A stretch of 64,000 nt of DNA from an uncultured Chloroflexia bacterium (GTDB lineage Bacteria > Chloroflexota > Anaerolineae > CG2-30-64-16), in NCBI GenBank assembly GCA_963810095.1, contig CAWEMM010000012.1:448001-512000 (forward strand), read 5' to 3'. The notes beneath the pieces are model-generated. The model was not told the DNA's origin. It ran no database searches and saw only the letters and a list, made by a program, of their open reading frames with translations. Shown one piece after another: positions 12,609-62,740 of the stretch. Made by a program: the position numbers and the translations under genes. How positions within the stretch are numbered: the stretch's first letter is position 1; each line of letters begins with the position of its first letter.

Positions 12609-12625
12609 CGGGAAACCTCTTTCAG

Positions 12626-12696
12626 CACAAAGTCGCGAAGACACGAAGGGTCACCGAGCTCTTCGTGAGGCTTCGTGGCTTGGTGTCTTCGTGGTT
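12626..12696. repeat. Family A palindromic repeat
   Basis: cacaaagtcgcgaagacacgaag ... cttcgtggcttggtgtcttcgtggtt. Confidence 0.8.
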
Positions 12697-19777: not shown

Positions 19778-20397
19778 CTAACCCTGGCCATCGATCGGCG
19801 GCAGGGGCGGGAGGCGGTCGAGGCCTTCCAGGCCGAAGTACTGGAGGAATTGCAGGGTGGTGCCGTAGAGGAACGGCCGGCCCGGTTGTTCGAGCCGGCC
19901 CACAGGTTCGACGAGCGCACGGGCGAGCAGCGTTTTCAGCACGCCGTCACAATTGACGCCCCGGATCGCCTCGATGTCGCCGCGGGTCAGCGGCTGGCGG
20001 TAGGCGATGACGGCCAGCGTCTCCAGCGCGGCGGTGGAGAGCTTCGTACTGAGGTCCAGGCCAAGAAACTTCTCGATGTACGCGGCCGCCTCGGGCGCCG
20101 TCGTCACATGCACCCGGTCGGCCCGGCGAATGACGCGGAGCCCGCGGCGTTCGCCCGCGTATCGCCCCGCAAGCGTCTCGAGCGCGGCCTGGATCACATC
20201 CTCGCCTGCGTCAAGCACCTGCGCCAGCCGCGCGATCGGAATGGGCGCCGGTGCGACGAACAGCAGAGCTTCGATGAGCGCGGGCACATCCAGTGCGGGC
20301 ACGTCGGGCGCGGCACGTCGGGTGCCGTGACCGAGATCGCGAGGGGCGCCGAGGTTACTTCGGTGTCCGTCTCGCCGCCTTGCGTTTCGATCGTCAC
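19778..20397 (-). CDS. scpB: SMC-Scp condensin subunit ScpB (1-nt frameshift near 20310)
   Basis: IEALLFVA, LSTAALETLAVIAYRQPLTRGDIEAIRGV, PGRPFLYGTT..FL.YFGL; GTG at 20397 overlaps the upstream stop; one base is missing in an APDVP tandem repeat. Confidence 0.9.
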
Positions 20398-20955
20398 CCG
20401 GCGCCGTCCGTGTAAGGCGCGTGGTCGATGTGCACCTGGATCTTGCCAAGCTGCAAGCCCATGCGCTCCGTAATCACTTCTTTCGCGACGGAGACGATCT
20501 CGTCGGTCTTCATCGGCACGTCGATCTCGGGCCGGGTCTGCACTTCAAGCCGCACATTCACCTGCTTGCCCCCGCCCCACACGTACGGCTCGACGCTCAC
20601 AACATCGGCCAACTGGTCGATGTGCCATGCCAGGCGCCGCGGCGACAGAGTCGGTGGTTACGGAGGCCTGGCTGCCGGTCTCTGTCACCACCCGCACCGC
20701 GCGGGGCCGGCGTCGCTTGATCTGCTGCCAGAGCAGTGGGAGGACCACCAGGATCGCCACCACGGCGAGCCCCACCCGGCCCAACGCGTACAGCAGCGGC
20801 TGGTTCGCCTGCAGTGTCTGCACCCAGCCGGCGGCCCGCGCAAAGGCCGCGGAAATGGACTGCAAGGTTTGCGCCGGGAACAAGGCAAGCATCAGGCTCA
20901 GTGCAAGGAGCACGAGGAGCAGGATGATGACGACCAGCTTGTTGAAAACGTTCAT
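20394..20955 (-). CDS. Membrane-anchored Asp23/AmaP-like protein (frameshift near 20640)
   Basis: Two N-terminal TM helices, then a soluble domain (SVTTDSV...DVVSVEP...EIDVP.K..EI...MGL...V.I); joins ORFs 20545-21207 and 20394-20612. Confidence 0.6.
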
Positions 20956-20973
20956 GGTCCCCTCCTGGGCGAG

Positions 20974-20982
20974 ATTATAGCA
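20974..20982 (-). promoter_or_regulatory. Extended -10 promoter for the amaP-like/scpB unit, overlapping the upstream stop codon
   Basis: Minus strand TGCTATAAT about 20 nt before the GGAGG/ATG at 20955. Confidence 0.5.
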
Positions 20983-23862
20983 GCTTCGCACGCAAGCGGA
21001 TAACCAGTGCCGCAAGCAGCGCCAGCGCAAGCGCGAACAGCGCACCGATACTGATGATGACGCCGATCCGCCAGCTCTGTGGCGCGTATTCGAACACGAC
21101 TTCGTGATCTCCCGGCTCGATGCGGACGGCCCGATACAGCAGGTTTGCCTTGAGGATTTCGGCGGGTTGACCGTCGACGGTCGCACGCCAGCCGGGGTAC
21201 CAGGCATCCGCGATCACGAGCAGGCCGGTCTCGGTGGCTTGCACCCGGTAGCTCTGCCGCTCGTCCCGGTAGTCCACCAAAGTCACACCCTCTCCCGCCT
21301 GGGCCTCGGCTGCCTGTGCCCGAGCCAGCGGGGCCTCCACGACTGCCTGCGCCCGGGGCCGGAATGCCGGGTCGCCGATCGCCGCCTGGGCCGCCTTTGC
21401 GTCCGCGACGGGCATTATCCCATGTACGAGCCAGGCCCGTTCCGGCGCGCCGGTCCGCTCGTACACCTTCACGTCGCCCGAATGGATGCGGCGGAAGTCG
21501 CCTTGTGGCGATAGTGTGACGGACTGGTGGGTGCGGGCGCCGTCGCGCTCGTCGATCAAGCTGATGCCCTGGATGACCAGAGGCCCGGCGGAAGGGTTGC
21601 GCAGCGTGATACGGGCGGGCGTTCCGGGCGCCTCCAACGGCAGGACGGCCGGCTGCGGTGCGCCACCGGGTGCGCCCACGGCAGCGGGCGGTAGGGCCAG
21701 CGGAACTTCGGCCCCGTCTTCCATCCGCACCACGATCGCCACCGGCTCCTTAGGGGGTGTCAGACGCCGCAACGACGCCAACTGCGCTTGCGGGGAAGGC
21801 CGGGTAGCCTGCCAGGTCGAGTTCGAGCACGCCGTTGGCCGGGATGGTCGTGTGCTGCTCCAGGTCATAGTAAACGTCACCCGCCCACAGGTCGCGCTGC
21901 TTGTCGGTGATCACATACCGCACGCCCGTCAGGTCCAGCAGCCGCGCATCCGGAATGGCCGAGAGTTGCTCCGCAAGCCGGCCGTCCGGCGTCATGTGCT
22001 CGGGCGGCAGGAAAAGCTCCTGGAGCATGACGTAGCGCTGCAGCGGCAGCAGCCCGCCGTCGTAGCCGTCGACCGCCGGGAGGCGGAGGAGGAGCGGCAG
22101 GTTCGGTGCGAGCACCTCGACCTGCTTCGCCGCACGCACCAGGCGCTCGACTGCGACGTCCGGCAGCCGGTCGCGCCTGCAGAGCGCGCAGCTCGGCCAG
22201 GTCGCCGGGATCGTATCGGATATTCGAAAGGCTCAGGAAGCGGCCGCGGCCGCCGGATGGCCCATTGCCCGCCGCGGCAAGCAGCGCCGCGGGCGCATTG
22301 CGCAGTGCCATCGCCATCGGCGCGGTCGCCGCCACAAACGGCAGCGCCCGGCTGGCAAAGAGGAGTTCGAGAAACAGGAGCAGCACCAGGAGGGTCTGGA
22401 ACACGAAACGACGTCCCCCGCTTCGCCGCTTCGCCCCTTCGCGCTGTGCGCCTTCATCCCCCTCTGTGCCTTCGCGTTCCACCTCGGTCCCGCCCGACGC
22501 CGCAAGGGTCAGCGCACCTGCCGCGGCCGCCACTCCCACCCAAGCCGCCACAGTCAGCGGGGCCGGCCAGTGCTGCCACGCCAGCAGTCCGAGCATCGCG
22601 AGCGTAACCACAACGAGAATGACGCGGCCGGCTGTCCTTTTCGGCGGACCCGGCCGGCGGATGCGGAGCGCTGCCAGCGAGTCAAGCCCCAGGGCCGCCA
22701 GCAGGGCGGCCCCGAGCGCAAACAACTCGAGCCAGCGGGCCGGCGCCCGGAAGAGATCAAAGCCGGGCACAAAGCGCCACAGCAGGTAGTAGGCCGGGTT
22801 GTACGCGCCCAGCGCCAGGAACGCACCGAGCGCGGACAGGGCGAGGCTGCGCAGGGCGGGCCCGGCCCCGGGTGTGCGTGCCCGCGCCGCCCCCACTGTT
22901 GCCACGACGCCCAGTGCGGCAAGCAGCAGCCCGGCGATGCCCGCGTAGCCGAGAAACTCGGCGTAGCCCTCGCTGCCAAACGCCGCGTCCAGCCCGCCGC
23001 CGAAGGGGGGCAGGAAGGTCTGCAGCAGGAGCTGGGGCCGGAGCGAGAAACTGACGGCCTGCCGGTAGTCCAGCCCGCCGGTGCGCAGCCCAAGCGTATT
23101 CAGCTCGAGCGTGGGGAGCAGCTGCGCGGCAGCCAACGCCAGTGCGGGAATAACGGCCAGCAGTGGAAGCAGCCTGAGAAGCCCCGCGCGACGCACCGGC
23201 CAGCCCACGGAGAACACGGCCCATACTCCCAGCCCCACCATGTTGATAAAGGTCGTCTGCGTGTGGCCGGCCAGCACCTGGAGGCAGATGACGACGGCCA
23301 GCGCGACGAATGGCCCTATCGCCCGCGCCGGCGTGCTCGGCGAAACCCGCCTTCTGTTGACCTCATCGTACAGCCACAACATTGCGGGCAGCCACGCCAG
23401 CGCGTTCAGTTGGTTGATGTTCTCGACGCGGGCCAGCGTAAAACCGCCGAGCCCGAAGACGAGCCCGGCCGCGAACCCTGCAAGCCAGCTCGCCCGCAGC
23501 GAGCGGGTGGCCAGCGTATAGGTGAAGCCGGCAGCCAGCCAAACGTGAAGCAGCGCCGACCACACGAGCGCCTGCTCGGCCCGCAGCCAGCTGAGGGGCC
23601 AGTGGAGGGGATAGAGCACGGCCGCCTGGATGTTGGCGAGGAACGGCGCGCCGGAGAAGAGGTATGGGTTCCACAGGGGGACCTGGCCCGCCCGGAACGC
23701 CTCCATGCGGTGCGCCCAGTATGGGGTGAAGTAGGTGAAAGCGTCGACCCCCGCCAGGATGCGGTTCGTCAGCCCGAGCGGCCAGCACACGACGAGCGTC
23801 GCGAGCCCCAGCCCCAGCCAGGCCGCAATATCGGGCAGGCGGCGCCGCAACCCCGCCTTCAC
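20975..23862 (-). CDS. YfhO-family GT-C membrane glycosyltransferase (frameshifts near 22170 and 21770)
   Basis: PLWNPYLFSGAPFLANIQAAVLYP, AGHTQ, FDLFRAPARW, GYDGG, and C-terminal ADAWYPGWRATVDG...AN..YRAV...G.H.V.F.Y.P; GTG start overlaps the upstream stop. Confidence 0.85.
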
Positions 23863-25490
23863 GGATGCGCCTCGAGCAAGTCGCCCCTGCCTGCTGTAGC
23901 GCTCGAAGCCACGAGTGAAGGCTCCAGCCGGTAAAGCGTGATGTCCGGTTCGCCATTCTGCCCGGCCACCTCGTAGGCGGGCCATGCGCTGAAGCCACGG
24001 GCGGCCAGCGCAGCACTGAGGGCCGGGAGGCGTGAGCGCTCCCACTGCGGCAGCGCCAACCACTGCGACGGCGCCCCGGCTGTTCCTGCGACGCGCGCGG
24101 TCTCGCTCGCCAGCTTCTGCGGCGAGTCGTACCAACTGCGCACAATCGGGCGGCCGTACAGGTAGTACCCCAGGTGCCAGCCGATGCGATCGAAGTAGAC
24201 GGTCGCGCCCGGAGGCTGGCCGGCCAGAAAGCGGGCCGCCTGCGCCACCCCTCGATAGGCGCCGATGTCGCTCCCCACGGGAATCGCCGCCCGTACGCCC
24301 AAGGTGGCGGCAAACACCAGGACGGCGGCGAGGGCGGCGGCGGTGCTGCCGGCGACCCGGGCCCGCCCGCGGGGCGTCCTCGTCCGCTTCAGCGCCTCCC
24401 ACCCGGCCGCCAACCCCTGCCCGAGCAGGACGCAGACCAGCGGAAGAATCGGCAGCAGGTAACGATCCCACGGTTGGATGGTGAAGGCCACGTGGACCAG
24501 GAGATAGCCCGCGACATAGGCGAGGCACACAGCGGCAGGGCGGAGCCGTCCACGGCCGAGTAGTTCATTCGGGGATGGCCGCCCGCTCCTCCAAGCCAGG
24601 CAGCCGGCTGTCAGCAGCGCGAGGGTCAGGGGCCACGCCCCGAACCAGTAACCCGCCTGCCGCGCCCACTCGACCGCCCGCTCGGGCCAGTCGGCCAAGC
24701 GCGCCAGAACAACGCCCCCGTACGTCTGCAGGCTCTGGTCCCAGTAGCTCGGCCGGTTATGCCACCGCAGGCTGTCCCAATACGTAACCGCGCCGAAACA
24801 CGACCGCAAACCCCAAGGCTGCCAGTCCCACCGCGGCAAGGGTCCTTCGCGCTCTTCGCGCTTCACGCTTCGCGCCTTCGCGTTCCACCGCGCCTTCGCG
24901 TCCAAAACCCCCACGATCACCAGCGCCAGCACCAGCGGCACACCCATCACCCCCTGCTGTTTGCTGGCGCACGCGAGTCCGAGCAGCACGCCGGCCCAAC
25001 CAGGACGTCCTGCAAGCGCCGCCCACGCCGCAGCCACCAGGAAGAGGGTCAGCCACCCGTCGGTAAAGGCAGTCGGAGCGAAGAGGATCGCAAACGGCGA
25101 CAACGCCACTAGCGCGGCGGCAACCCAGGCGGTCCGCACGCCGGCCACCCGACGAGCGAGCCCAAACGTCGCCAGGACGGTGAGGACGCCGGCGGCCATG
25201 CCGGGGACGCGCAGGCTCAGCTCGGACACGCCAAACAGTTTGATCGTCGCGGCAAGCAGGTACAGGACGAGCGGCGGCTTATCGACCCAGGGAATCAGCA
25301 GCAGCGGGTCGGAGCCGTCTGCGATGGCCCGCGCCCAGGTGCCGTAGAGCGCCTCGTCGTGGTGGAGGGGCAGGTTAGCGAGCCACGGGATGGCGCGCAG
25401 AAGCAGCGCGATCGACAGGAGCGCGACAATGGCGAGTGTGCGCTTGAGGGCGCGCCCTACTCGGTCAACCGGTATTTCAGGAGCGTCCAC
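23859..25490 (-). CDS. ArnT/PMT_2 (GT39/83-like) GT-C glycosyltransferase; start uncertain
   Basis: HHDEALY, DKPPL..YL.A...LFG.SE...R, many TM segments, RYLLP; probable compensating indels near 24790-24850. Confidence 0.85.
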   Translation of the reverse strand: MDAPEIPVDRVGRALKRTLAIVALLSIALLLRAIPWLANLPLHHDEALYGTWARAIADGSDPLLLIPWVDKPPLVLYLLAATIKLFGVSELSLRVPGMAAGVLTVLATFGLARRVAGVRTAWVAAALVALSPFAILFAPTAFTDGWLTLFLVAAAWAALAGRPGWAGVLLGLACASKQQGVMGVPLVLALVIVGVLDAKARWNAKARSVKREEREGPLPRWDWQPWGLRSCFGAVTYWDSLRWHNRPSYWDQSLQTYGGVVLARLADWPERAVEWARQAGYWFGAWPLTLALLTAGCLAWRSGRPSPNELLGRGRLRPAAVCLAYVAGYLLVHVAFTIQPWDRYLLPILPLVCVLLGQGLAAGWEALKRTRTPRGRARVAGSTAAALAAVLVFAATLGVRAAIPVGSDIGAYRGVAQAARFLAGQPPGATVYFDRIGWHLGYYLYGRPIVRSWYDSPQKLASETARVAGTAGAPSQWLALPQWERSRLPALSAALAARGFSAWPAYEVAGQNGEPDITLYRLEPSLVASSATAGRGDLLEAHP

Positions 25491-26212
25491 ATCACCGTCA
25501 GCCCATCGCGCCAGCTGATCTTCTTGCCCTCGTTGTACTCGCGGCCGTTGTACGAGATGGGCACTTCGTAGATGCGATAGCCGCGCTTGAGGATCTTCGC
25601 GGTGATCTCGGGGTCGAAGCCCCAGCCGGGCGACTTAAGGCGCAGCTTGAGTGCGACTTCACGGGTGAAGACCTTGTAGCAGGTCTCCATGTCCGAGAGG
25701 ATCGTGTCGAAGAGGACGTTGGTAAACAGGGTCAACATCTTGTTGCCCAGCATGTGCGTAAAGAACATTGCCTTGCGCGCCCCGCCGAGGAAACGGCTGC
25801 CGTAGACCACCTTCGTGCGGCCTTCCAGGATCGGCAGTACGAGCTGGGGGTACTCACGCGGGTCATACTCGAGGTCGGCATCCTGAACGATCATGATCTC
25901 GCCGGTGGCCTTCTCAATGGCCGTGCGGACTGCTGCGCCTTTGCCCTGGTTGCGCTCGTGATAGTACACGAACACGCCGGGCAACTGCGCAAGCTCGGGT
26001 AGGATCTCGCGGGTGCCGTCGCGCGACCCGTCGTCGACGATCACGATTTCCTTCTCCATGACCATCGTGACGGTCTCGCCCTTCGGCGCCGCTTTGGGCT
26101 GGTACGGCCCGTTGCGCACGTGCAAGACCAGCTCAACCGCCAGCACCTGCTCGACAATGGGGCGGATGGTATCAATCTCGTTATAGCATGGAATGAGGAC
26201 GGACAACTTCAA
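25457..26212 (-). CDS. GT2 polyprenol-phosphate glycosyltransferase (DPM1-like)
   Basis: SVLIPCYNE, VDDGSRDGT, NQGKGAA, QDADLEYDP, VYGSRF, DMETCYK; TTG start with GGAGG. Confidence 0.93.
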   Translation of the reverse strand: MKLSVLIPCYNEIDTIRPIVEQVLAVELVLHVRNGPYQPKAAPKGETVTMVMEKEIVIVDDGSRDGTREILPELAQLPGVFVYYHERNQGKGAAVRTAIEKATGEIMIVQDADLEYDPREYPQLVLPILEGRTKVVYGSRFLGGARKAMFFTHMLGNKMLTLFTNVLFDTILSDMETCYKVFTREVALKLRLKSPGWGFDPEITAKILKRGYRIYEVPISYNGREYNEGKKISWRDGLTVMWTLLKYRLTE

Positions 26213-26250
26213 AGGAGCGACCTCCGGTATGATACACAATACGGGATGCC

Positions 26251-26350
26251 ATTATAACCACAAAGGCACAAAGACACGAAGATGGCGGCGCCTTGTGTTG
26301 ACCGGGCCGTTAGGCTCAGATGGTAGTTTCTCCGCAGAAACCGGCTTTCT
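26251..26350. repeat. Family A and family C repeats in a divergent promoter region
   Basis: accacaaaggcacaaagacacgaag (26257-26281) abuts a minus-strand TATAAT; agaaaccggctttct at 26336-26350. Confidence 0.7.
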
Positions 26351-26375
26351 GTTATACTTCCCCCGGAGTGTGAAC

Positions 26376-27236
26376 ATGACCGCAGGTAGTGGGTCGAAAC
26401 GGGTTCTGCTCGCCGTCTTTGCCCATCCAGACGACGAGTCGTTCGGGCCGGGGGGCACCCTCGCAAAGTACTCGCGCGAGGGCGTCGACGTGTGGCTCGT
26501 GTGCGGCACCGACGGCAACGCCGGCACGGTGGACTCGGCGATGCTGGAAGGCTACAAGAGCACCTCGCAACTGCGGGCAGCCGAACTCTGCTGCGCCGCA
26601 CAGACGCTGGGGCTGGCCGGCATCGACTGGCTGGCCTACCGAGACAGCGGGATGCGCGGCGCGCCCGAGAACGACCATCCGGAAAGCCTGTTTCAGGCGC
26701 CCATGGATAAGCTGGTGGGGCAGATCGTGGCCTCGATCCGCAAGCACAAGCCGCAGGTCATCATGTGCGACAACCAGTACGGCGGTTACGGCCACCCCGA
26801 CCACATCAAGCTGCATCAGGCGACCACCCGAGCCTTCTCAGCAGCGGCCGACCCGGCGCAGTACCCCGAGGCGGGCGAGCCGCACCGGGCCCGGGCGCTC
26901 TATCACCCGGCCTTCGGGTTCAAGCTCTTCAAGGTGGGCGTACGGCTTGCGCCGCTGGTCGGCCGGGATCCCCACAAGTTCGGCAAAAACGGCGACATCG
27001 ACCTGACCGAGGTTGTGCAGTGGGAGACGCCCGTCCATGCGCGCATCGACGTGAGCAAATACTTGGACGTGAAGCTGGCTGCAGGGGCGTGCCACAAAAG
27101 CCAGGGCGGACCCATGGAGATGACGAAGCGCCTGCCGGGCTGGCTGGTGCGGCGCATGTTCGGCGCCGAGGGCTTCACACAGGCCATCCCTGAGCCGAAA
27201 CCCGGCAAGGTGACCAAAGACTTGTTTCCAGGATGA
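26376..27236 (+). CDS. PIG-L family deacetylase (MshB/Mca-like)
   Basis: AHPDDESFG, YRDSGM, GGYGHPDH, HKSQ. Confidence 0.92.
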   Translation: MTAGSGSKRVLLAVFAHPDDESFGPGGTLAKYSREGVDVWLVCGTDGNAGTVDSAMLEGYKSTSQLRAAELCCAAQTLGLAGIDWLAYRDSGMRGAPENDHPESLFQAPMDKLVGQIVASIRKHKPQVIMCDNQYGGYGHPDHIKLHQATTRAFSAAADPAQYPEAGEPHRARALYHPAFGFKLFKVGVRLAPLVGRDPHKFGKNGDIDLTEVVQWETPVHARIDVSKYLDVKLAAGACHKSQGGPMEMTKRLPGWLVRRMFGAEGFTQAIPEPKPGKVTKDLFPG

Positions 27237-27240
27237 GGGC

Positions 27241-27879
27241 ATGGCACTAGAGGCAACACTGACTAATGAAGAGAGCGGGCTCCTGACGGGCCTCACTACC
27301 CCGCGCAAGGTCCAGGACTTCCTGGACACCGTCGCTTACGAGCCGGAATACTTCAACCGCTCGCCTTTGCGGGTGCTGCGTGAGCGCCGCGGGCACTGCC
27401 TCGACGGCGCGATCTTCGCCGCGGCTGCACTGCGACGCCTGGGCCACCGGCCCTTGATCCTGGACCTGACCCCCGAACCGCTGATGGACGACGACCATGT
27501 CCTCGCGGTGTACCGGAGGAACGACGGGTTCGGTGCGGTCGCCAAGTCCAATTTCAGCGGTCTGCGCTATCGCGAGCCGGTGTTCCGCACGCTCCGCGAG
27601 CTGGTCATGTCCTATTTCGAGGACTACTTCAACTCGTACGGCCGCAAGACACTCCGCGGCTACACCCGCCTGCTCGACCTCTCCCACTACGACGCTATGG
27701 ATTGGGAGACCAGCGATGCCGCGTGCGACCGCATCGAGAAGCGGCTGCAAGGCATGCATTCCATAGAACTGCTGACCCCCGCGATGATTCGCGAGCTCAC
27801 CCCTGTGGACGCCCGCCGGCTCGAAGCGGGCCTAAGCGGCGCCGACCCGGAGGGCCTGTTCAAGCCCGGCATCGCATAG
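27241..27879 (+). CDS. Hypothetical protein, possible transglutaminase-like Cys-His-Asp fold
   Basis: SPLRVL...HCLDGA.FAAAAL, DDDHVLAVY, AKSN. Confidence 0.6.
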   Translation: MALEATLTNEESGLLTGLTTPRKVQDFLDTVAYEPEYFNRSPLRVLRERRGHCLDGAIFAAAALRRLGHRPLILDLTPEPLMDDDHVLAVYRRNDGFGAVAKSNFSGLRYREPVFRTLRELVMSYFEDYFNSYGRKTLRGYTRLLDLSHYDAMDWETSDAACDRIEKRLQGMHSIELLTPAMIRELTPVDARRLEAGLSGADPEGLFKPGIA

Positions 27880-27892
27880 CCCGGGTGTCTGG

Positions 27893-27984
27893 CAACACGA
27901 AGGCGCGAAGTGTGCGAAAAGCACACGCCAGCGCGGTAGCCTCCGTGCTTCGCATCTTCAGCGCGCTTGGTCGCTTCGTGTTCC
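27893..27984. repeat. Family A palindromic repeat (degenerate)
   Basis: caacacgaaggcgcgaag ... cttcgtgttcc. Confidence 0.7.
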
Positions 27985-28034
27985 AAACCGCCTCGCCCAG
28001 ATAATCGAACCGCACCCGACCGCACCCCCATGGC

Positions 28035-28121
28035 TTGCCCCGTCCCGGCCCTTGTGCTATACTCGCTATTGCAATTGCTCGCAATAACAATAAATTCGTA
28101 ATAGCGAGGGTTTCGCAATAA
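28035..28121 (+). promoter_or_regulatory. Promoter of the ECF metal-uptake operon with AT-rich candidate Fur-family operator(s)
   Basis: TTGCCC-N17-TATACT with extended TG, followed by tattgcaattgctcgcaata and atagcgagggtttcgcaat; inverted repeat ctcgctatt/aatagcgag. Confidence 0.7.
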
Positions 28122-28167
28122 GTATCTATCGGAGAATTAGCTGGGGCCGGTCTCTGACTGTGCCCCG

Positions 28168-28216
28168 TCTGGCCGGTCTCGTACGCCAGCCAGGCTGGCG
28201 TACGAGACCGGCCAGA
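28168..28216. other. Perfect 24-bp inverted repeat in the 5' leader of cbiM
   Basis: tctggccggtctcgtacgccagcc-a-ggctggcgtacgagaccggccaga. Confidence 0.85.
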
Positions 28217-28270
28217 GCACTTTCGGATAGATTCTAAGCTCTGCCGGCTGTTTCCCCCAGGAGGTTGGCC

Positions 28271-29233
28271 ATGCCGTTTGCAAGCGTACAACCCATGCAC
28301 ATTCCCGACGGCTTCCTGTCCGTCGCGGTCTCCGTTGTCTTTTGGCTGCTCTCGATCCTGGCAGTGGCCTACGCGCTCCGCCGGCTGAACGCCGACCTCA
28401 ATGAGCGCAAGGTGCCGCTTATGGGCGTCCTGGCAGCAGCGATATTCGCCGGCCAGATGTTGAACTTCTCCGTTACCGGCGGCACCTCGGGCCACCTGAT
28501 GGGCGCGGCGATTGCCACCATCCTGCTCGGACCCTGGGCCGCCGTGCTCATCCTGACCGCAGTGGTCAGCATCCAGGCGCTGATCTTCCAGGACGGCGGC
28601 ATCCTGGCGCTCGGCGCGAACATCTTCAATATGGCCGTCGTTGGGGTCACCGTCGCCTACTTCACCTATCGCACCGCGCAGCGACTCGCGGGTGGAAGAA
28701 GGTGGGGGATCTTCGGAGGTGGCTTCGCCGCGGGCTGGCTGTCGATTTTCATTGCCGCGCTCGCGGTCGCACTGCAACTCGCGCTCTCGGGCACGTCGCC
28801 CGCCAATCTCGCCGTCCCGGCAATGGGTGCAATACACGCGCTGATCGGCGTCGGCGAGGGGTTGATTACGGTCGGCGCGCTGGCGTTCCTCTACACGGCC
28901 CGGCGCGACTTGGTCGTTCACGGTTCCGAAGGGGCGCCGGCCGGTAAGCTCATCTGGCTCGGCGGTCTCGTTCTGGCGCTCGGCCTCGCTGTCCTGGCGC
29001 CGCTCGCATCCTCGCACCCTGACGGCCTGGAGTGGGTTGCCGCGCAGAGCGGCTTCCTCGGCCTGCAGCGCGCGCCGTCGGGGGGTCTCCTGCAAGGCTA
29101 CATGCTGCCCGGAGTCTCGAACACCGCCGTCGCGACCATCCTGGCGGGCGCGATCGGCGTGCTGCTGGTCCTCGCGGTCGTAGTTGGCTTGGCGCTGGCC
29201 CGCCGGCGCCGGCCCGCAGAGAACGAGGCCTAG
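28271..29233 (+). CDS. cbiM: Co/Ni ECF transporter S component CbiM/NikM fused to a PDGLE (NikN) domain
   Basis: MHIPDGFL (from 28295), GTSGHL.G, FQDGG..ALGAN, ASSHPDGLE. Confidence 0.93.
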   Translation: MPFASVQPMHIPDGFLSVAVSVVFWLLSILAVAYALRRLNADLNERKVPLMGVLAAAIFAGQMLNFSVTGGTSGHLMGAAIATILLGPWAAVLILTAVVSIQALIFQDGGILALGANIFNMAVVGVTVAYFTYRTAQRLAGGRRWGIFGGGFAAGWLSIFIAALAVALQLALSGTSPANLAVPAMGAIHALIGVGEGLITVGALAFLYTARRDLVVHGSEGAPAGKLIWLGGLVLALGLAVLAPLASSHPDGLEWVAAQSGFLGLQRAPSGGLLQGYMLPGVSNTAVATILAGAIGVLLVLAVVVGLALARRRRPAENEA

Positions 29234-29238
29234 GCGCC

Positions 29239-30039
29239 ATGCACGCCCATTTTCTCGATCCATTTCGTGAAGGCGCTTCGCCGGTGCACAGGCTCGACCC
29301 ACGGATCAAGCTGGTGCTCGCGGTGGCCTTCATCCTGACGGCCGCGCTGATCCACCCCGGCGCGTGGCCGGCGTACGTGCTGCTCTTCGCCGGGGCCTTC
29401 TCGATCATCCTGCTGTCAGAGCTGGGCGTCGGCTTTGTCTACAAACGGGCGGTGCTGGCCGCGCCGTTCGTCCTCGCGGCCCTGCCGCTGCTCTTCACCG
29501 TGCCCGGCGAGGCGTTGGCGACCTTCCACATTGGGCCCTGGACCCTGACGCTGACTCAGCCCGGGCTCGTCCGCTTCATCAGCGTTGCGCTGAAGTCATG
29601 GATCTCAGTCCAGATTGCGATTGTGCTGGCCTCCACGACCGCTTTCCCCGACCTGCTGGCGGCCATGCGAGCGCTCAGGATCCCGCGGCTCTTGGTGGCA
29701 GTCATCGGCCTGATGTGGCGCTACCTCTTCGTCCTTGTCGACGAGGTGATGCGCCTGATGCGGGCACGCGAGGCGCGTAGCGGCCATCCGGCCGTGCCTG
29801 CGGGACGAGTGGGTGGATCGCTTGCCTGGCGGGGAAAAGTCACGGGCGGCATGGCGGGCAACCTCATGCTCCGCTCGTTTGACCGCTCCGAGCGCATCTA
29901 TGCCGCAATGGCCAGCCGCGGCTACGACGGCGAGGTGCGCGGCCTGCCGCGTCCGGCCGTGCCCTCGCTGGCCTGGGTCGTACTGGCGGGGGGCCTGCTG
30001 TTTCTGATGCTGATCCTGCTGTTGGGGCTTGTCCTGTGA
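29239..30039 (+). CDS. cbiQ: ECF transporter T component CbiQ/NikQ
   Basis: SPVHRLDPRIKL, RYL.VL.DE..R..RAR.AR, RSERIY.AM.SRGY.G. Confidence 0.93.
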   Translation: MHAHFLDPFREGASPVHRLDPRIKLVLAVAFILTAALIHPGAWPAYVLLFAGAFSIILLSELGVGFVYKRAVLAAPFVLAALPLLFTVPGEALATFHIGPWTLTLTQPGLVRFISVALKSWISVQIAIVLASTTAFPDLLAAMRALRIPRLLVAVIGLMWRYLFVLVDEVMRLMRAREARSGHPAVPAGRVGGSLAWRGKVTGGMAGNLMLRSFDRSERIYAAMASRGYDGEVRGLPRPAVPSLAWVVLAGGLLFLMLILLLGLVL

Positions 30040-55326: not shown

Positions 55327-56571
55327 CTACGCCTTCGCCAGCGCCTGCTCCAGGTCGGCCACGACGTCTTCGACATCCTCCAGCCCCACCGACATGCGGA
55401 TCAGGCCGTCGTCGATGCCCGCCCGGTCGCGCTCATCCTGGGTCAAGTGCTCGTGCGTGATGGTGCGGGGGTGCATGACGATCGTGCGGCTGGTGCCAAA
55501 GGTCACCGCGTGGATGATCAGCTTGAAGCTGTCCATGACCGTGCGGACCGCGGGAATGCCGCCCTTCACGACGAACGAAAGCATGCCGCCGCCCGCCTTC
55601 ATCTGGCGCTGTGCCAGCGCGTACTGCGGGTGCGCCGGCAGGCCCGTGTAATTCACGCGGCTGATCTTCGGATGAGACTGCAGGTACTCGGCCAGCGCGT
55701 GGGCGTTGCTGCTGTGCTTCGCCATGCGCAGGGGCAGCGTTTCGAGGTACTGGACCGTGAGCCACGAGTCGAAGGGTTGCATCGTGCAGCCGACGAACTC
55801 GGTCGTGTTCCAGCGAATATCTTCGGTTAGCGACTCGGGCCCGACGATCGCGCCGCCCAGCACCGTCGCATTGCCGGCCAGAAACTTGGTGATCGACAGC
55901 AAGACGATGTCGGCGCCGAACGCCAACGGCTTCTGCAGTGCGGCCGTCGCGGTCGTGTTATCGACCATCATCGGGACGCCGCGACTGTGGGCCACGTCTG
56001 CCACTGCCTGCAGGTCGGTGACAAAAAGCGTCGGGTTGGATGGGGTCTCGACCCAGACCAATTTCGTGCGACTGTCGATCGCCGCGTCCCAACACTTGGG
56101 ATCCTCGGGGTCCAACACCCAACGGAACTGCACGCCGCAGCGTTCGGGGAATATGGTCGCCGCTTGCTTGTAGCCCTCGCCGAACGTCATCAGGGACGTC
56201 ACGATGTTGTCGCCGGGCCGGCAGATGGTGAAGAGCAGGTTGAAGAGCGCTTGCGAGCCGGACCCGGCCGTCACGCACGCCTCGCCGCCCTCGAGCACCG
56301 CCAATCGTTCCTCCAGCACCGAGGTCGTCGGCGTCTTGGTGCGCCCGTAGACCGGGTAGGGAATCTTGTCGAATTGCTCATATGGGAACGTCATCGACGG
56401 GACGATGGGGAGGCTGAAGGTGTTGAAGCGCCCCATGCCGGTAATCGGGCGGAACCCCGCATGGAGCGCCTGGGTAGCAAAGCCCAGGTCGTCGTCAGGT
56501 CGCGGCTGTCGCTGGCAGTCCGGATCATACGCCCAGGGCCGGCGCATGAAGAACATTTCGTCGTGTTGCAT
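55327..56571 (-). CDS. Cys/Met metabolism PLP enzyme (methionine gamma-lyase/cystathionine gamma-synthase family), divergent
   Basis: FATQALHAG, YGR...PT...LEERLA.LEGG, ETPSNP, VDNT, SITKFLAG, LIRMSVGLED. Confidence 0.9.
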   Translation of the reverse strand: MQHDEMFFMRRPWAYDPDCQRQPRPDDDLGFATQALHAGFRPITGMGRFNTFSLPIVPSMTFPYEQFDKIPYPVYGRTKTPTTSVLEERLAVLEGGEACVTAGSGSQALFNLLFTICRPGDNIVTSLMTFGEGYKQAATIFPERCGVQFRWVLDPEDPKCWDAAIDSRTKLVWVETPSNPTLFVTDLQAVADVAHSRGVPMMVDNTTATAALQKPLAFGADIVLLSITKFLAGNATVLGGAIVGPESLTEDIRWNTTEFVGCTMQPFDSWLTVQYLETLPLRMAKHSSNAHALAEYLQSHPKISRVNYTGLPAHPQYALAQRQMKAGGGMLSFVVKGGIPAVRTVMDSFKLIIHAVTFGTSRTIVMHPRTITHEHLTQDERDRAGIDDGLIRMSVGLEDVEDVVADLEQALAKA

Positions 56572-62653: not shown

Positions 62654-62740
62654 ACCACAAAGACACGAAGTACACGAAGGTTCACAAAGCCGGTTCCGGC
62701 TGTCCTTTGTGAACCTTCGTGCCTTTGAGGCTTCGTGGTA
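62654..62740. repeat. Family A palindromic repeat
   Basis: accacaaagacacgaagtacacgaaggttcacaaag ... ctttgtgaaccttcgtgcctttgaggcttcgtggt. Confidence 0.88.

What the first reader, a model, noticed from the sequence alone, without database searches (positions are those of the whole stretch)
22397..22481. Family A repeat inserted inside the YfhO-like coding sequence
Seen: tggaacacgaa ... ttcgcgttcca inverted ends with internal cttcgc units, the same terminus as the intergenic copy ending near 27984. It is read through in frame as a charged loop (EVEREGTEGDEGAQREGAKRRSGGRRFVFQ) between two TM helices. Established precedent: Rickettsia palindromic elements add peptide segments to proteins. Inference: repeat-driven creation of new protein sequence in this lineage.
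Basis: partly seen in the sequence, partly recalled or inferred. Interest (0 to 1): 0.6.

Follow-up and report, generated by a model that had tools for sequence, protein, structure and literature searches.

The report
Repeat relic translated inside membrane protein
An 85-base worn-down copy of a hairpin-forming DNA repeat sits in frame inside a membrane glycosyltransferase-like gene of an uncultured Anaerolineae bacterium, adding about 30 charged amino acids to a short loop, which is a further example of a phenomenon first described in Rickettsia.

Summary
Window 22397-22481 has the inverted ends and 8-base CTTCGC-type units. On the minus strand it reads in frame as EVEREGTEGDEGAQREGAKRRSGGRRFVFQ, between two hydrophobic helices of a YfhO-like gene.

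It belongs to a real repeat family of about 42 loci in this genome, but it is a relic. One arm is nearly gone and it no longer folds as a hairpin. The closest relative (G001) carries a full two-armed copy at the same site, also read through. Two other same-genus genomes have a 2-residue loop there. A fourth (G007) has a different, genome-specific palindrome in the same loop.

I found seven coding copies in six genes: this one, the adjacent PMT_2 glycosyltransferase, CoaBC, TopA and two polyketide synthases. All are read in the same frame, (L/V)EREGAK.

The gene shows two frame breaks. Short-read contigs contradict the window at every covered break, so these are probably assembly errors, not decay. 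The break near 22178 and the element itself were not covered.

This is a new member of a known kind: Rickettsia palindromic elements and intragenic REPs. Translation is unproven. This scan has noted similar in-frame palindromes on other DNA many times.

The parts
22397..22481 (-). Relic copy of the family A repeat, read in frame. On the coding strand it keeps one arm (TGGAACGCGAAGG followed by GAAG-type units) and only the last 12-13 bases of the other arm (TTTCGTGTTCCA).
20975..23862 (-). YfhO-like membrane protein gene. The likely GTG start at 23862 overlaps the upstream stop as GTGA. As assembled it has frame breaks near 22178 and 21752.
   Evidence: PF09586, 42 bits, C-terminal piece only; weak GT-C fold matches
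22495..22560 (-). Hydrophobic helix before the insert (residues 435-456 of the N-terminal piece).
22324..22413 (-). Hydrophobic helix after the insert (residues 484-513). Its first residues, RRFVFQ, are encoded by the end of the repeat.
22174..22181 (-). Frame break 1 in the YfhO-like gene (context gcgcgac, not a homopolymer). The window has one base more than G001 here. No listed short-read piece covers it.
21750..21756 (-). Frame break 2, at a C5 run on the coding strand. One short-read contig (run X4, depth 3.2) has two more bases behind 21752 and another letter at 21753, which puts the gene back in frame.
24843..24905 (-). Second coding copy of family A: two tandem termini plus one arm, in a loop of the adjacent PMT_2 glycosyltransferase gene. 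The true frame between the two assembly indels reads REGAVEREGAKREARRARR, followed by a hydrophobic helix.
   Evidence: (31.5 bits, E 7.8e-7)
23859..25490 (-). PMT_2-family (GT-C type) glycosyltransferase gene directly upstream. Short-read contigs of two runs differ from the window at 24900 (one base more) and 24795 (one base fewer).
27890..27985 (.). Two-armed intergenic copy of family A. It starts 11 bases after the stop of ORF 27241..27879 (+) and lies upstream of a cbiM-like ORF, 28265..29233 (+).
   Evidence: RNA fold z -3.41; 31.6 bits, E 7.4e-7

Best explanation
The 85 bases are a decayed copy of a non-autonomous repeat I call family A. Full copies are imperfect palindromes of about 90-210 bases. 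They end in TGGAACRCGAAG...CTTCGYGTTCCA, and their arms are runs of 8-base CGAAG-type units.

A full element landed in the codons of a very short loop between two late transmembrane helices of a YfhO-like, GT-C-type membrane protein. This happened before the species of the window (G000) and its closest relative (G001) split. The element has almost no stop codons in any frame, and this insertion kept the frame, so the gene stayed open. The element is now read as part of the protein.

In G000 most of one arm was later deleted. What remains is the hydrophilic reading (EVEREG...EGAKRR) and no hairpin. The extra roughly 30 residues are most likely a tolerated, flexible charged loop, not a new function.

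The same process has put family A copies into loops or linkers of at least five other genes in this genome. Only insertions read as (L/V)EREGAK-type charged peptide are seen, which suggests selection removed the others.

Shown:
- family membership
- the in-frame reading
- absence of the insert from some orthologs
- the shared site in G001
- the other coding copies and their common frame

Inferred:
- translation into protein
- tolerance rather than function
- the order of insertion and deletion
- the way the element moves (unknown)
For: Family. The genome has 152 hits of the 12-base terminus with up to 1 mismatch. Their GAAG-unit counts are bimodal, and 59 arms have 3 or more units in the 60 bases read. 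These merge into 44 loci, 2 of which look like background. Ten full copies fold as DNA hairpins with z -4.5 to -10.3. The 20-base terminus pattern occurs 52 times in G000 and 46 times in G001. It occurs 0 times in G002, G004 and G006, and 0 times in 11 of 12 genomes of other families of the class. The reversed control pattern gives 0-1 hits (15 of 31 genomes have a match).

This copy. See the observation check. Its arm is in register with C6:1406568 and other arms listed.

Orthologs. All 31 of 31 related genomes searched have the gene. In the alignment of 10 sequences the loop is 2 residues in L005 and L006, and 6-8 in L009 and L011. It is about 21 in L002-L004 and about 35 in the window.

G001. 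The same site holds a 139-base two-armed copy (56.5 bits, fold z -7.06), read through without a stop.

G007. The same loop holds a perfect palindrome with 26-base arms, from a family with 175 arm hits in G007 and 0 in G000, G001, G005 and G006.

Other coding copies:
- PMT_2 gene
- CoaBC, with a 41-residue loop against 0 in five outgroups and 10 in G001
- two ACP linkers of a KS-ACP-ACP synthase
- a linker of TopA
- the AT-ACP linker of a PKS/NRPS

All seven are read as xTG-GAA-CGC-GAA, although arms are stop-free in 65-98% of cases in each of the six frames.

Gene probably intact. One search lists 3 indel differences between short-read contigs and the window over 7.2 kb. All 3 fall exactly at frame breaks predicted from orthologs (21752, 24795, 24900). 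Codon-position GC of the gene is coding-like, 0.73/0.54/0.84.
Against: - The profile score of this copy alone is marginal (E 0.025), and the copy has lost its palindrome.
- No listed read-derived piece covers 22397-22481 or the frame break near 22178. That break could therefore be real, which would make the gene a pseudogene.
- The short-read contigs have depth 2-4 and may come from a slightly different strain.
- The loop is length-variable across the genus (2 to about 47 residues), so part of the extra length may not come from the element.
- The G000 and G001 peptides differ (68 identical columns of 140 at DNA level, and partly different frames). That argues against a conserved function but does not prove tolerance.
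- The coding-copy census used my own ORF and codon-position-GC heuristic, not a gene caller. The assembly has indel errors that can hide or fake open frames.
- There is no RNA or protein evidence.
Confidence: 0.8

Rival explanations
1. The YfhO-like gene is a decaying pseudogene. The repeat sits in dead DNA, and the open frame across it is an accident of high GC content.
For: As assembled, the gene has two frame breaks against five intact same-genus orthologs. The break near 22178 is not in a homopolymer and no listed short-read piece covers it. In 65% GC DNA, open frames persist by chance.
Against: Short-read contigs contradict the window at all three covered break sites in this gene and its neighbour. 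Further frame breaks of the same kind appear in two polyketide synthase genes of the assembly, which points to assembly error. Codon-position GC is coding-like. Both flanks of the insert align in frame with orthologs. G001 keeps the frame open through a longer copy at the same site.
Confidence: 0.08
2. The segment is an ordinary low-complexity charged linker that grew by replication slippage of GAAG-rich codons. Its likeness to the repeat family is coincidental.
For: The units are short (8 bases) and simple. The TopA linker of relatives without the family is also K/A-rich low complexity. The profile E-value of this copy is only 0.025.
Against: Both family termini are present in inverted orientation. 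The arm matches genomic arms in register over about 56 bases. G001 has a full-length, hairpin-forming family member at exactly this site. Same-genus genomes with 0-1 family copies (G002, G003) have a 2-residue loop.
Confidence: 0.03
3. The inserted peptide has been put to use. The charged (L/V)EREGAK-type segment is kept because it serves as a spacer or interaction loop. That would explain why only this frame is seen and why two species keep it in two adjacent glycosyltransferase genes.
For: All seven of seven coding copies in six genes use one of six possible frames, although all frames are mostly stop-free. The insertions in the YfhO-like and PMT_2 genes are shared by G000 and G001.
Against: The peptides encoded at the shared YfhO-like site differ in length, sequence and partly in frame between G000 and G001. 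Same-genus relatives do without the loop. A frame bias is also expected from simple removal of harmful readings, namely the Arg-rich or hydrophobic F/L-rich frames. The AlphaFold model gives the segment only middling confidence, 57-68 in its first 20 residues.
Confidence: 0.1

Closest known systems
Rickettsia palindromic elements (RPE; Ogata et al. 2000 and 2002, as summarised in passages of PMC10969869 and PMC3733652 that I read)
   Same: A dispersed palindromic repeat of about 100-150 bases found both between genes and in frame inside unrelated genes, including housekeeping genes. It adds a peptide segment in loops or linkers and leaves the frame open. Copies decay with time.
   Different: The host is a free-living, large-genome, 65% GC Anaerolineae lineage, not a reduced intracellular alphaproteobacterium. 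The sequence looks unrelated: 8-base CGAAG-type units and a TGGAAC terminus. I did not compare it with RPE sequences. Only about 7 of about 42 loci are coding here, whereas the review says nearly half of the R. conorii RPEs lie in ORFs. Coding copies here are mostly one-armed.
Intragenic REPs (GTAG- and CGTC-tagged palindromes; Di Nocera et al. 2013, PMC3733652, passages read)
   Same: Small palindromic repeats occasionally inserted in frame in ORFs of many phyla. They encode 20-30 residues, up to 82. The authors thought them likely harmless because they sit in flexible linkers or loops. That paper reports different REPs at about the same site of recB in two Xanthomonas species, comparable to the shared loop here.
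   Different: Family A has no GTAG or CGTC tag and is much longer than a 20-40-base REP. No Y1 (RAYT/IS200-type) transposase was found in this 88.5%-complete genome. The G007 palindrome in the same loop does contain GTAG and looks more like a classical REP.
Bacterial MITEs with in-frame fusions (ERIC, Coxiella QMITE, Anabaena MITEs; review PMC10969869, passages read)
   Same: Non-autonomous elements with terminal inverted repeats. They lack their own transposase and sometimes fuse in frame with host ORFs.
   Different: I saw no target-site duplication at the flanks of the copies listed, and no parent insertion sequence is known. I did not search for one.

Membership tests
RPE-like protein-coding palindromic repeats (kind, not sequence family) | Dispersed multi-copy repeat family in the genome | tested here: met
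   About 42 loci in G000. Terminus pattern: 52 hits in G000 against 0 for the reversed control.
RPE-like protein-coding palindromic repeats (kind, not sequence family) | Palindromic, hairpin-forming element | tested here: met
   Met for the family: 10 full copies have z -4.5 to -10.3, and the G001 copy at this site has z -7.06. Not met for the window copy itself, which is a relic (z -0.13).
RPE-like protein-coding palindromic repeats (kind, not sequence family) | Inserted in frame in an ORF, with no stop, and both flanks aligning with orthologs | tested here: met
RPE-like protein-coding palindromic repeats (kind, not sequence family) | Insert absent from orthologs | tested here: met
   2-residue loop in L005 and L006; 6-8 residues in L009 and L011. 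However, L002-L004 have about 21 residues at this position.
RPE-like protein-coding palindromic repeats (kind, not sequence family) | Insert lies in a surface loop compatible with the fold | tested here: inconclusive
   The insert lies between two hydrophobic helices. The AlphaFold model from a 15-sequence alignment has mean pLDDT 69. The insert blocks score 57 and 68, and its second half is modelled as an extension of the next helix.
RPE-like protein-coding palindromic repeats (kind, not sequence family) | Insert is present in mRNA and protein | not testable with these tools
   No RNA runs held the stretch (one search lists only DNA runs). There are no proteomic data.
RPE-1 to RPE-10 sequence families of Rickettsia | Sequence homology to an RPE consensus | not tested
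   No RPE sequence was available from a tool. Rfam gathering-threshold search of 20000-29500 found nothing.
REP / REPIN mobilised by RAYT | Short 20-40-base stem-loop tagged with GTAG or CGTC | tested here: not met
   Family A copies are 90-210 bases with a TGGAACRCGAAG terminus and no such tag.
REP / REPIN mobilised by RAYT | A Y1 (RAYT) transposase gene in the genome | tested here: not met
   PF01797 has no match in G000. The genome is 88.5% complete, so absence is not proven. The control search found it in 6 of 14 genomes.
MITE | Terminal inverted repeats | tested here: met
MITE | Target-site duplication | tested here: inconclusive
   No direct repeat is visible at the flanks. The flanking TT...AA looks like an extension of the palindrome. 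I did not analyse this formally.
MITE | A parent insertion sequence with the same ends | not tested
   Not searched.
YfhO (PF09586), host gene | Pfam match above the gathering score | tested here: met
   Only the C-terminal piece, window 20978-21748, matches (42 bits against a cut-off of 28.5; profile positions 745-835 of 835). The N-terminal 557 residues have no Pfam or NCBIfam match.
YfhO (PF09586), host gene | GT-C type membrane glycosyltransferase fold | tested here: inconclusive
   The best Foldseek PDB matches are all GT-C enzymes (AglB, STT3, ArnT, AftA, PglB). However, E is 2e-3 or weaker and TM-scores are 0.3-0.4.

The most novel reading that the evidence does not exclude
Two things may go beyond passive tolerance.

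(1) The short loop between these two helices of the YfhO-like protein may be a true insertion hotspot. Two unrelated palindromic families hit it in one genus: family A in G000 and G001, and a GTAG-containing palindrome in G007. That would mean the elements are aimed at a local DNA feature and are not landing at random.

(2) The arm of family A may act as a ready-made charged linker. It is stop-free in all frames, yet it is fixed only when read as (L/V)EREGAK. If so, a non-coding repeat is repeatedly recruited as a loop or linker in essential enzymes (CoaBC, TopA) and in multi-domain synthases of this Anaerolineae lineage.
Probability: 0.2. Interest if true: 0.6.

Novelty: new member of a known kind. 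Interest (0 to 1): 0.4.

Why it matters
It extends in-frame palindromic repeat insertion to free-living, large-genome Anaerolineae (Chloroflexota).

It also offers a natural series at a single protein site:
- empty (G002, G003)
- full hairpin copy (G001)
- one-armed relic (G000)
- a different repeat (G007)

Such a series allows study of how proteins absorb selfish DNA and how the DNA decays once it is coding. The single reading frame shared by seven coding copies is a testable sign of selection on what the repeat encodes.

For annotation there are two practical points. These inserts split Pfam domain matches, as with the Flavoprotein domain of CoaBC. And this long-contig assembly carries indel errors that mimic pseudogenes.

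Tried and rejected
- Pfam on the raw 883-residue ORF gave nothing. That ORF includes out-of-frame flanks. The trimmed N-terminal piece also gave nothing in Pfam or NCBIfam.
- RNA folding of the window copy on either strand is no better than shuffles (z -0.37 and -0.11). It is not a structured RNA now.
- Rfam at gathering threshold over 20000-29500 gave no match.
- Read support for the element itself: the four runs laid are Logan contigs with shares of 0.16-0.23. No listed piece covers 22397-22481 or about 22178, and 50 further pieces were not shown. This says nothing either way about those two places.
- RAYT as mobiliser: PF01797 was not found in G000.
- Foldseek against the PDB gave only weak GT-C matches.
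- Candidate coding copies at C12:728888 and C11:61535 were dropped, because the flank codon-position GC and stops indicate they are intergenic. C13:52329 and C6:1386873 were dropped as background, not family members.
- Literature: a search for Anaerolineae with repetitive, palindromic and MITE (3 of 4 terms required) listed no paper among its top 10 that contains the word Anaerolineae. A search for Chloroflexi with palindromic, repeat, inserted and coding sequence brought up only PMC3733652 as relevant. That paper reports GTAG repeats in Chloroflexi. In the passages I read it names no intragenic case in that phylum. I did not see its additional files.
- The last item of the script (L011) failed on a pattern and was not repeated.
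Full report
**What is at the coordinates.** Window 22397-22481 reads TGGAACACGAA...TTCGCGTTCCA on the plus strand. The two 11-base ends are inverted repeats, 10 of 11 complementary and 63 bases apart. The interior has CTTCGC-type units at a spacing of 8. The 11-mer, with up to one mismatch, occurs five times in the window against 0.76 expected; none of 100 shuffles reaches five. On the minus strand the segment is read without a stop as EVEREGTEGDEGAQREGAKRRSGGRRFVFQ. This is residues 460-489 of the N-terminal part of the protein. It lies between hydrophobic segments 435-456 and 484-513, has mean hydropathy -1.62, and contains seven acidic and seven basic residues.

**The host gene.** The 883-residue ORF listed by the tool is not the gene. 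Three-frame translation and comparison with five same-genus orthologs show where it runs. The gene starts at a GTG at 23862, overlapping the stop of the upstream gene, and ends at 20975. The orthologs have uninterrupted open frames of 932-1230 residues. The window shows two frame changes, near 22178 and near 21752. The C-terminal piece matches Pfam YfhO (PF09586, 42 bits against a cut-off of 28.5). The N-terminal 557 residues match nothing in Pfam or NCBIfam. An AlphaFold model of that part (15-sequence alignment, mean pLDDT 69, pTM 0.79) finds only weak matches in the PDB. All the best ones are GT-C membrane glycosyltransferases (AglB, STT3, ArnT, AftA, PglB), with E 2e-3 or weaker. "YfhO-like" is therefore fair. 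Relatives found in public genomes are labelled Anaerolineales or Anaerolineae MAGs.

**Is the gene broken?** I laid short-read contigs of four sediment metagenome runs, all from one study, on 20900-28100. Only three insertion or deletion differences were listed. All three fall exactly where ortholog comparison had predicted a frame problem:
- two extra bases behind 21752 (one contig), which restores the frame of the YfhO-like gene
- one base fewer at 24795 (two runs)
- one base more behind 24900 (two runs)

The last two lie in the upstream gene. Between them the window ORF is read in the wrong frame. The correct frame gives REGAVEREGAKREARRARRTLAAVGLAALGFAVVF, and its hydrophobic part aligns with the helix of the orthologs. 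Further frame breaks of the same kind appear in two polyketide synthase genes elsewhere in the assembly. I conclude that the assembly carries indel errors and that the gene is probably intact. Three caveats apply. The contigs have depth 2-4. They may come from a near strain. And no listed piece covers the break near 22178 or the repeat itself.

**The repeat family.** Termini paired within 20-200 bases occur 13 times in the 6.13-Mb genome. A profile of 10 full copies, with this one left out, finds 55 loci at E of 0.05 or better. A few of these belong to a second, related family. The 12-base terminus with up to one mismatch occurs 152 times. The number of GAAG units in the 60 bases read from the terminus is bimodal (93 hits with 0-2 units, 59 with 3-7), and the window copy has 4. 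After merging there are 44 loci, two of which look like background.

Full copies are imperfect palindromes of 91-206 bases. As DNA they fold far better than shuffles (z -4.5 to -10.3). By my ORF and codon-position-GC heuristic, none of the 22 loci of 100 bases or more is coding. The 20-base terminus pattern occurs 52 times in G000 and 46 times in G001. It occurs 5-24 times in nine other genomes of the same taxonomic family and 13 times in one genome of another family. It was not found in G002, G004, G006, G013 and G016, nor in 11 of 12 genomes from other families of the class. The reversed control gives 0-1 hits. No Y1 transposase (PF01797) was found in G000. I saw no target-site duplication in the flanks listed. 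How the family moves is unknown.

**Is the window copy a member?** On its own the evidence is suggestive. The profile matches its minus strand over model positions 1-56 with 17.0 bits and a genome-wide E of 0.025. The far end keeps only the terminal 12-13 bases, and the hairpin is gone (z -0.13). The orthologous site in G001, the closest relative, decides it. DNA alignment of the whole two-gene region (72.5% identity over 4906 columns) shows a 139-base two-armed copy between the same flanking codons. That copy matches the profile end to end (positions 2-117, 56.5 bits), folds as a hairpin (z -7.06), and is read through without a stop in the gene's frame. The window copy aligns to it at both ends and along one arm (68 identical columns of 140). 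The simplest reading is one insertion before the two species split, followed in G000 by deletion of most of one arm.

**Orthologs without it.** All 31 of 31 related genomes searched have the gene. In the alignment of ten sequences:
- The loop is 2 residues in G002 and G003. These genomes have 0 and 1 family hits.
- It is 6-8 residues in two genomes of other genera.
- It is about 21 residues in G005, G006 and G007.
- It is about 35 residues in the window.

The 21-residue loop of G007 is itself a perfect palindrome with 26-base arms. It belongs to a family with 175 arm hits in G007 and none in G000, G001, G005 or G006. It contains GTAG and folds with z -13.6. The same loop has thus been hit independently by a second repeat family. 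The G005/G006 loop ends in CTTGTTCCGAC, which resembles the family A end. I could not show that it is a remnant.

**Other coding copies.** I looked at every family locus for a spanning open frame with coding-type GC at the three codon positions, and then at the genes themselves. Seven copies lie in six genes:
1. The YfhO-like gene.
2. The adjacent PMT_2 glycosyltransferase, at about 24843-24905. G001 has a copy at the same site.
3. CoaBC. Here the Flavoprotein domain match is split. The loop is 41 residues, against 0 in five outgroups, 10-15 in four relatives (10 in G001) and 24 in G002.
4. and 5. The linkers after two tandem ACP domains of a ketosynthase-ACP-ACP protein.
6. The linker between the zinc-ribbon domains and the Toprim domain of TopA. 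This one is less clean, because relatives have a K/A-rich low-complexity linker there.
7. The AT-ACP linker of a PKS/NRPS.

All seven have the CGAAG strand as coding strand and the frame xTG-GAA-CGC-GAA, read as (L/V)ERE(G/D)A. Family arms are stop-free in 65-98% of cases in each of the six frames, so stop codons do not explain this. If the six genes are independent and the frames equally likely, all sharing one frame has a chance of about 1 in 7,800. That figure is rough, because the frame was noticed after the fact and the census is heuristic. The other frames would give Arg-rich or Phe/Leu-rich hydrophobic peptides. My inference is that selection removes those insertions.

**How it works.** The best-supported model has these steps:
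- A non-autonomous palindromic repeat lands in DNA that encodes a short inter-helix loop.
- It is nearly stop-free, and this insertion kept the frame, so the gene survives.
- The repeat is transcribed and translated as an extra, mostly charged and probably flexible loop.
- The palindrome then decays.

Function is most likely unchanged. The inserted peptides at the shared site differ between G000 and G001, and relatives do without them. In the AlphaFold model the first 20 residues of the insert have pLDDT 57-68, and the rest is drawn as an extension of the next helix. This is weak evidence, because only the query covers those alignment columns. Translation, tolerance and the order of events are inferences.

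**Comparison with what is known.** This is the behaviour described for Rickettsia palindromic elements. Di Nocera et al. (PMC3733652) described it for intragenic REPs in several phyla, with inserts of 20-30 and up to 82 residues. The MITE review PMC10969869 covers both. I read passages of these two papers, not the whole texts or their supplements. Family A differs from REPs: it has no GTAG or CGTC tag, it is much longer, and no RAYT was found. It was not compared with RPE sequences. My searches found no report of such coding repeats in Anaerolineae. Earlier notes of this scan describe similar in-frame palindromes in many other genomes, and a note on this genome described another hairpin repeat family.

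**Verdict.** I classify it as a new member of a known kind. Two features add some interest: four states at a single protein site, and one shared reading frame in all coding copies. Interest 0.4.

Noticed in passing
window 21752, about 22178, 24795, 24900; also L021 about 5600 and L023 about 1800: The assembly carries single- or two-base indel errors that mimic frameshifts. Short-read contigs contradict the window at the three covered sites. Two polyketide synthase genes show similar frame breaks. Pseudogene calls in this genome need read support.
   Followed up: partly
window 12625-12686 and 62656-62735; G000 C12:293801, C14:24404, C6:1283844, C9:703096: A second, related palindromic repeat family built from ACACGAAG / CACAAAG units (CACAAAGACACGAAG...CTTCGTGTCTTTGTG) appeared as weak hits of the family A profile.
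   Followed up: no
L003 (G007:C105), loop of the YfhO-like ortholog: A perfect palindrome with 26-base arms, GGTTCGTAGTAGGCGCTTCAGCGCCC, is read in frame as VRSRRFSARARMGAEAPTTNR. Its family has 175 arm hits in G007 and none in four other same-genus genomes. It contains GTAG, like RAYT-linked REPs.
   Followed up: partly
L009, L011, L012 (YfhO-like orthologs of other genera): Other loops of the same protein carry large lineage-specific inserts of 30-75 residues. Some have internal tandem repeats (PRHLVTLSPRHLVT; NTQYAVRSTQYPIPNTQYP), which suggests more repeat-derived loop growth. The PMT_2 orthologs L016 and L017 also have a 35-residue insert in another loop.
   Followed up: no
G000 C7:308333-308611; C2:142055-142517; G011:C150:2-716: Family A also occurs as tandem arrays: four arm units in a row on C7, three full copies about 170 bases apart on C2, and 13 terminus hits at a 58-base period in G011.
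   Followed up: no
L022 (G000:C11:172000-177500), TopA: TopA of G000 and G001 has a duplicated N-terminal DUF5679 zinc-ribbon domain, where other same-genus genomes have one.
   Followed up: no
L027, L029, L030, L032, L033 (CoaBC of relatives): The short 10-24-residue CoaBC loops of relatives contain family-like fragments in their DNA, such as GGACCGCGA..GAAGGCG and a TCGAAGCC/GGCTTCGA mini-palindrome. They may be decayed remains of an older insertion at the same site.
   Followed up: no
window 27986-28264: An AT-richer stretch with a TATACT box and an inverted repeat (ctattgcaattgctcgcaataacaat) lies between the intergenic repeat and a cbiM-like ORF. No Rfam family matches at the gathering threshold.
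   Followed up: no
window 55802-55812: One further near-match to the family terminus (TGGAACACGAC, minus strand) was not examined.
   Followed up: no
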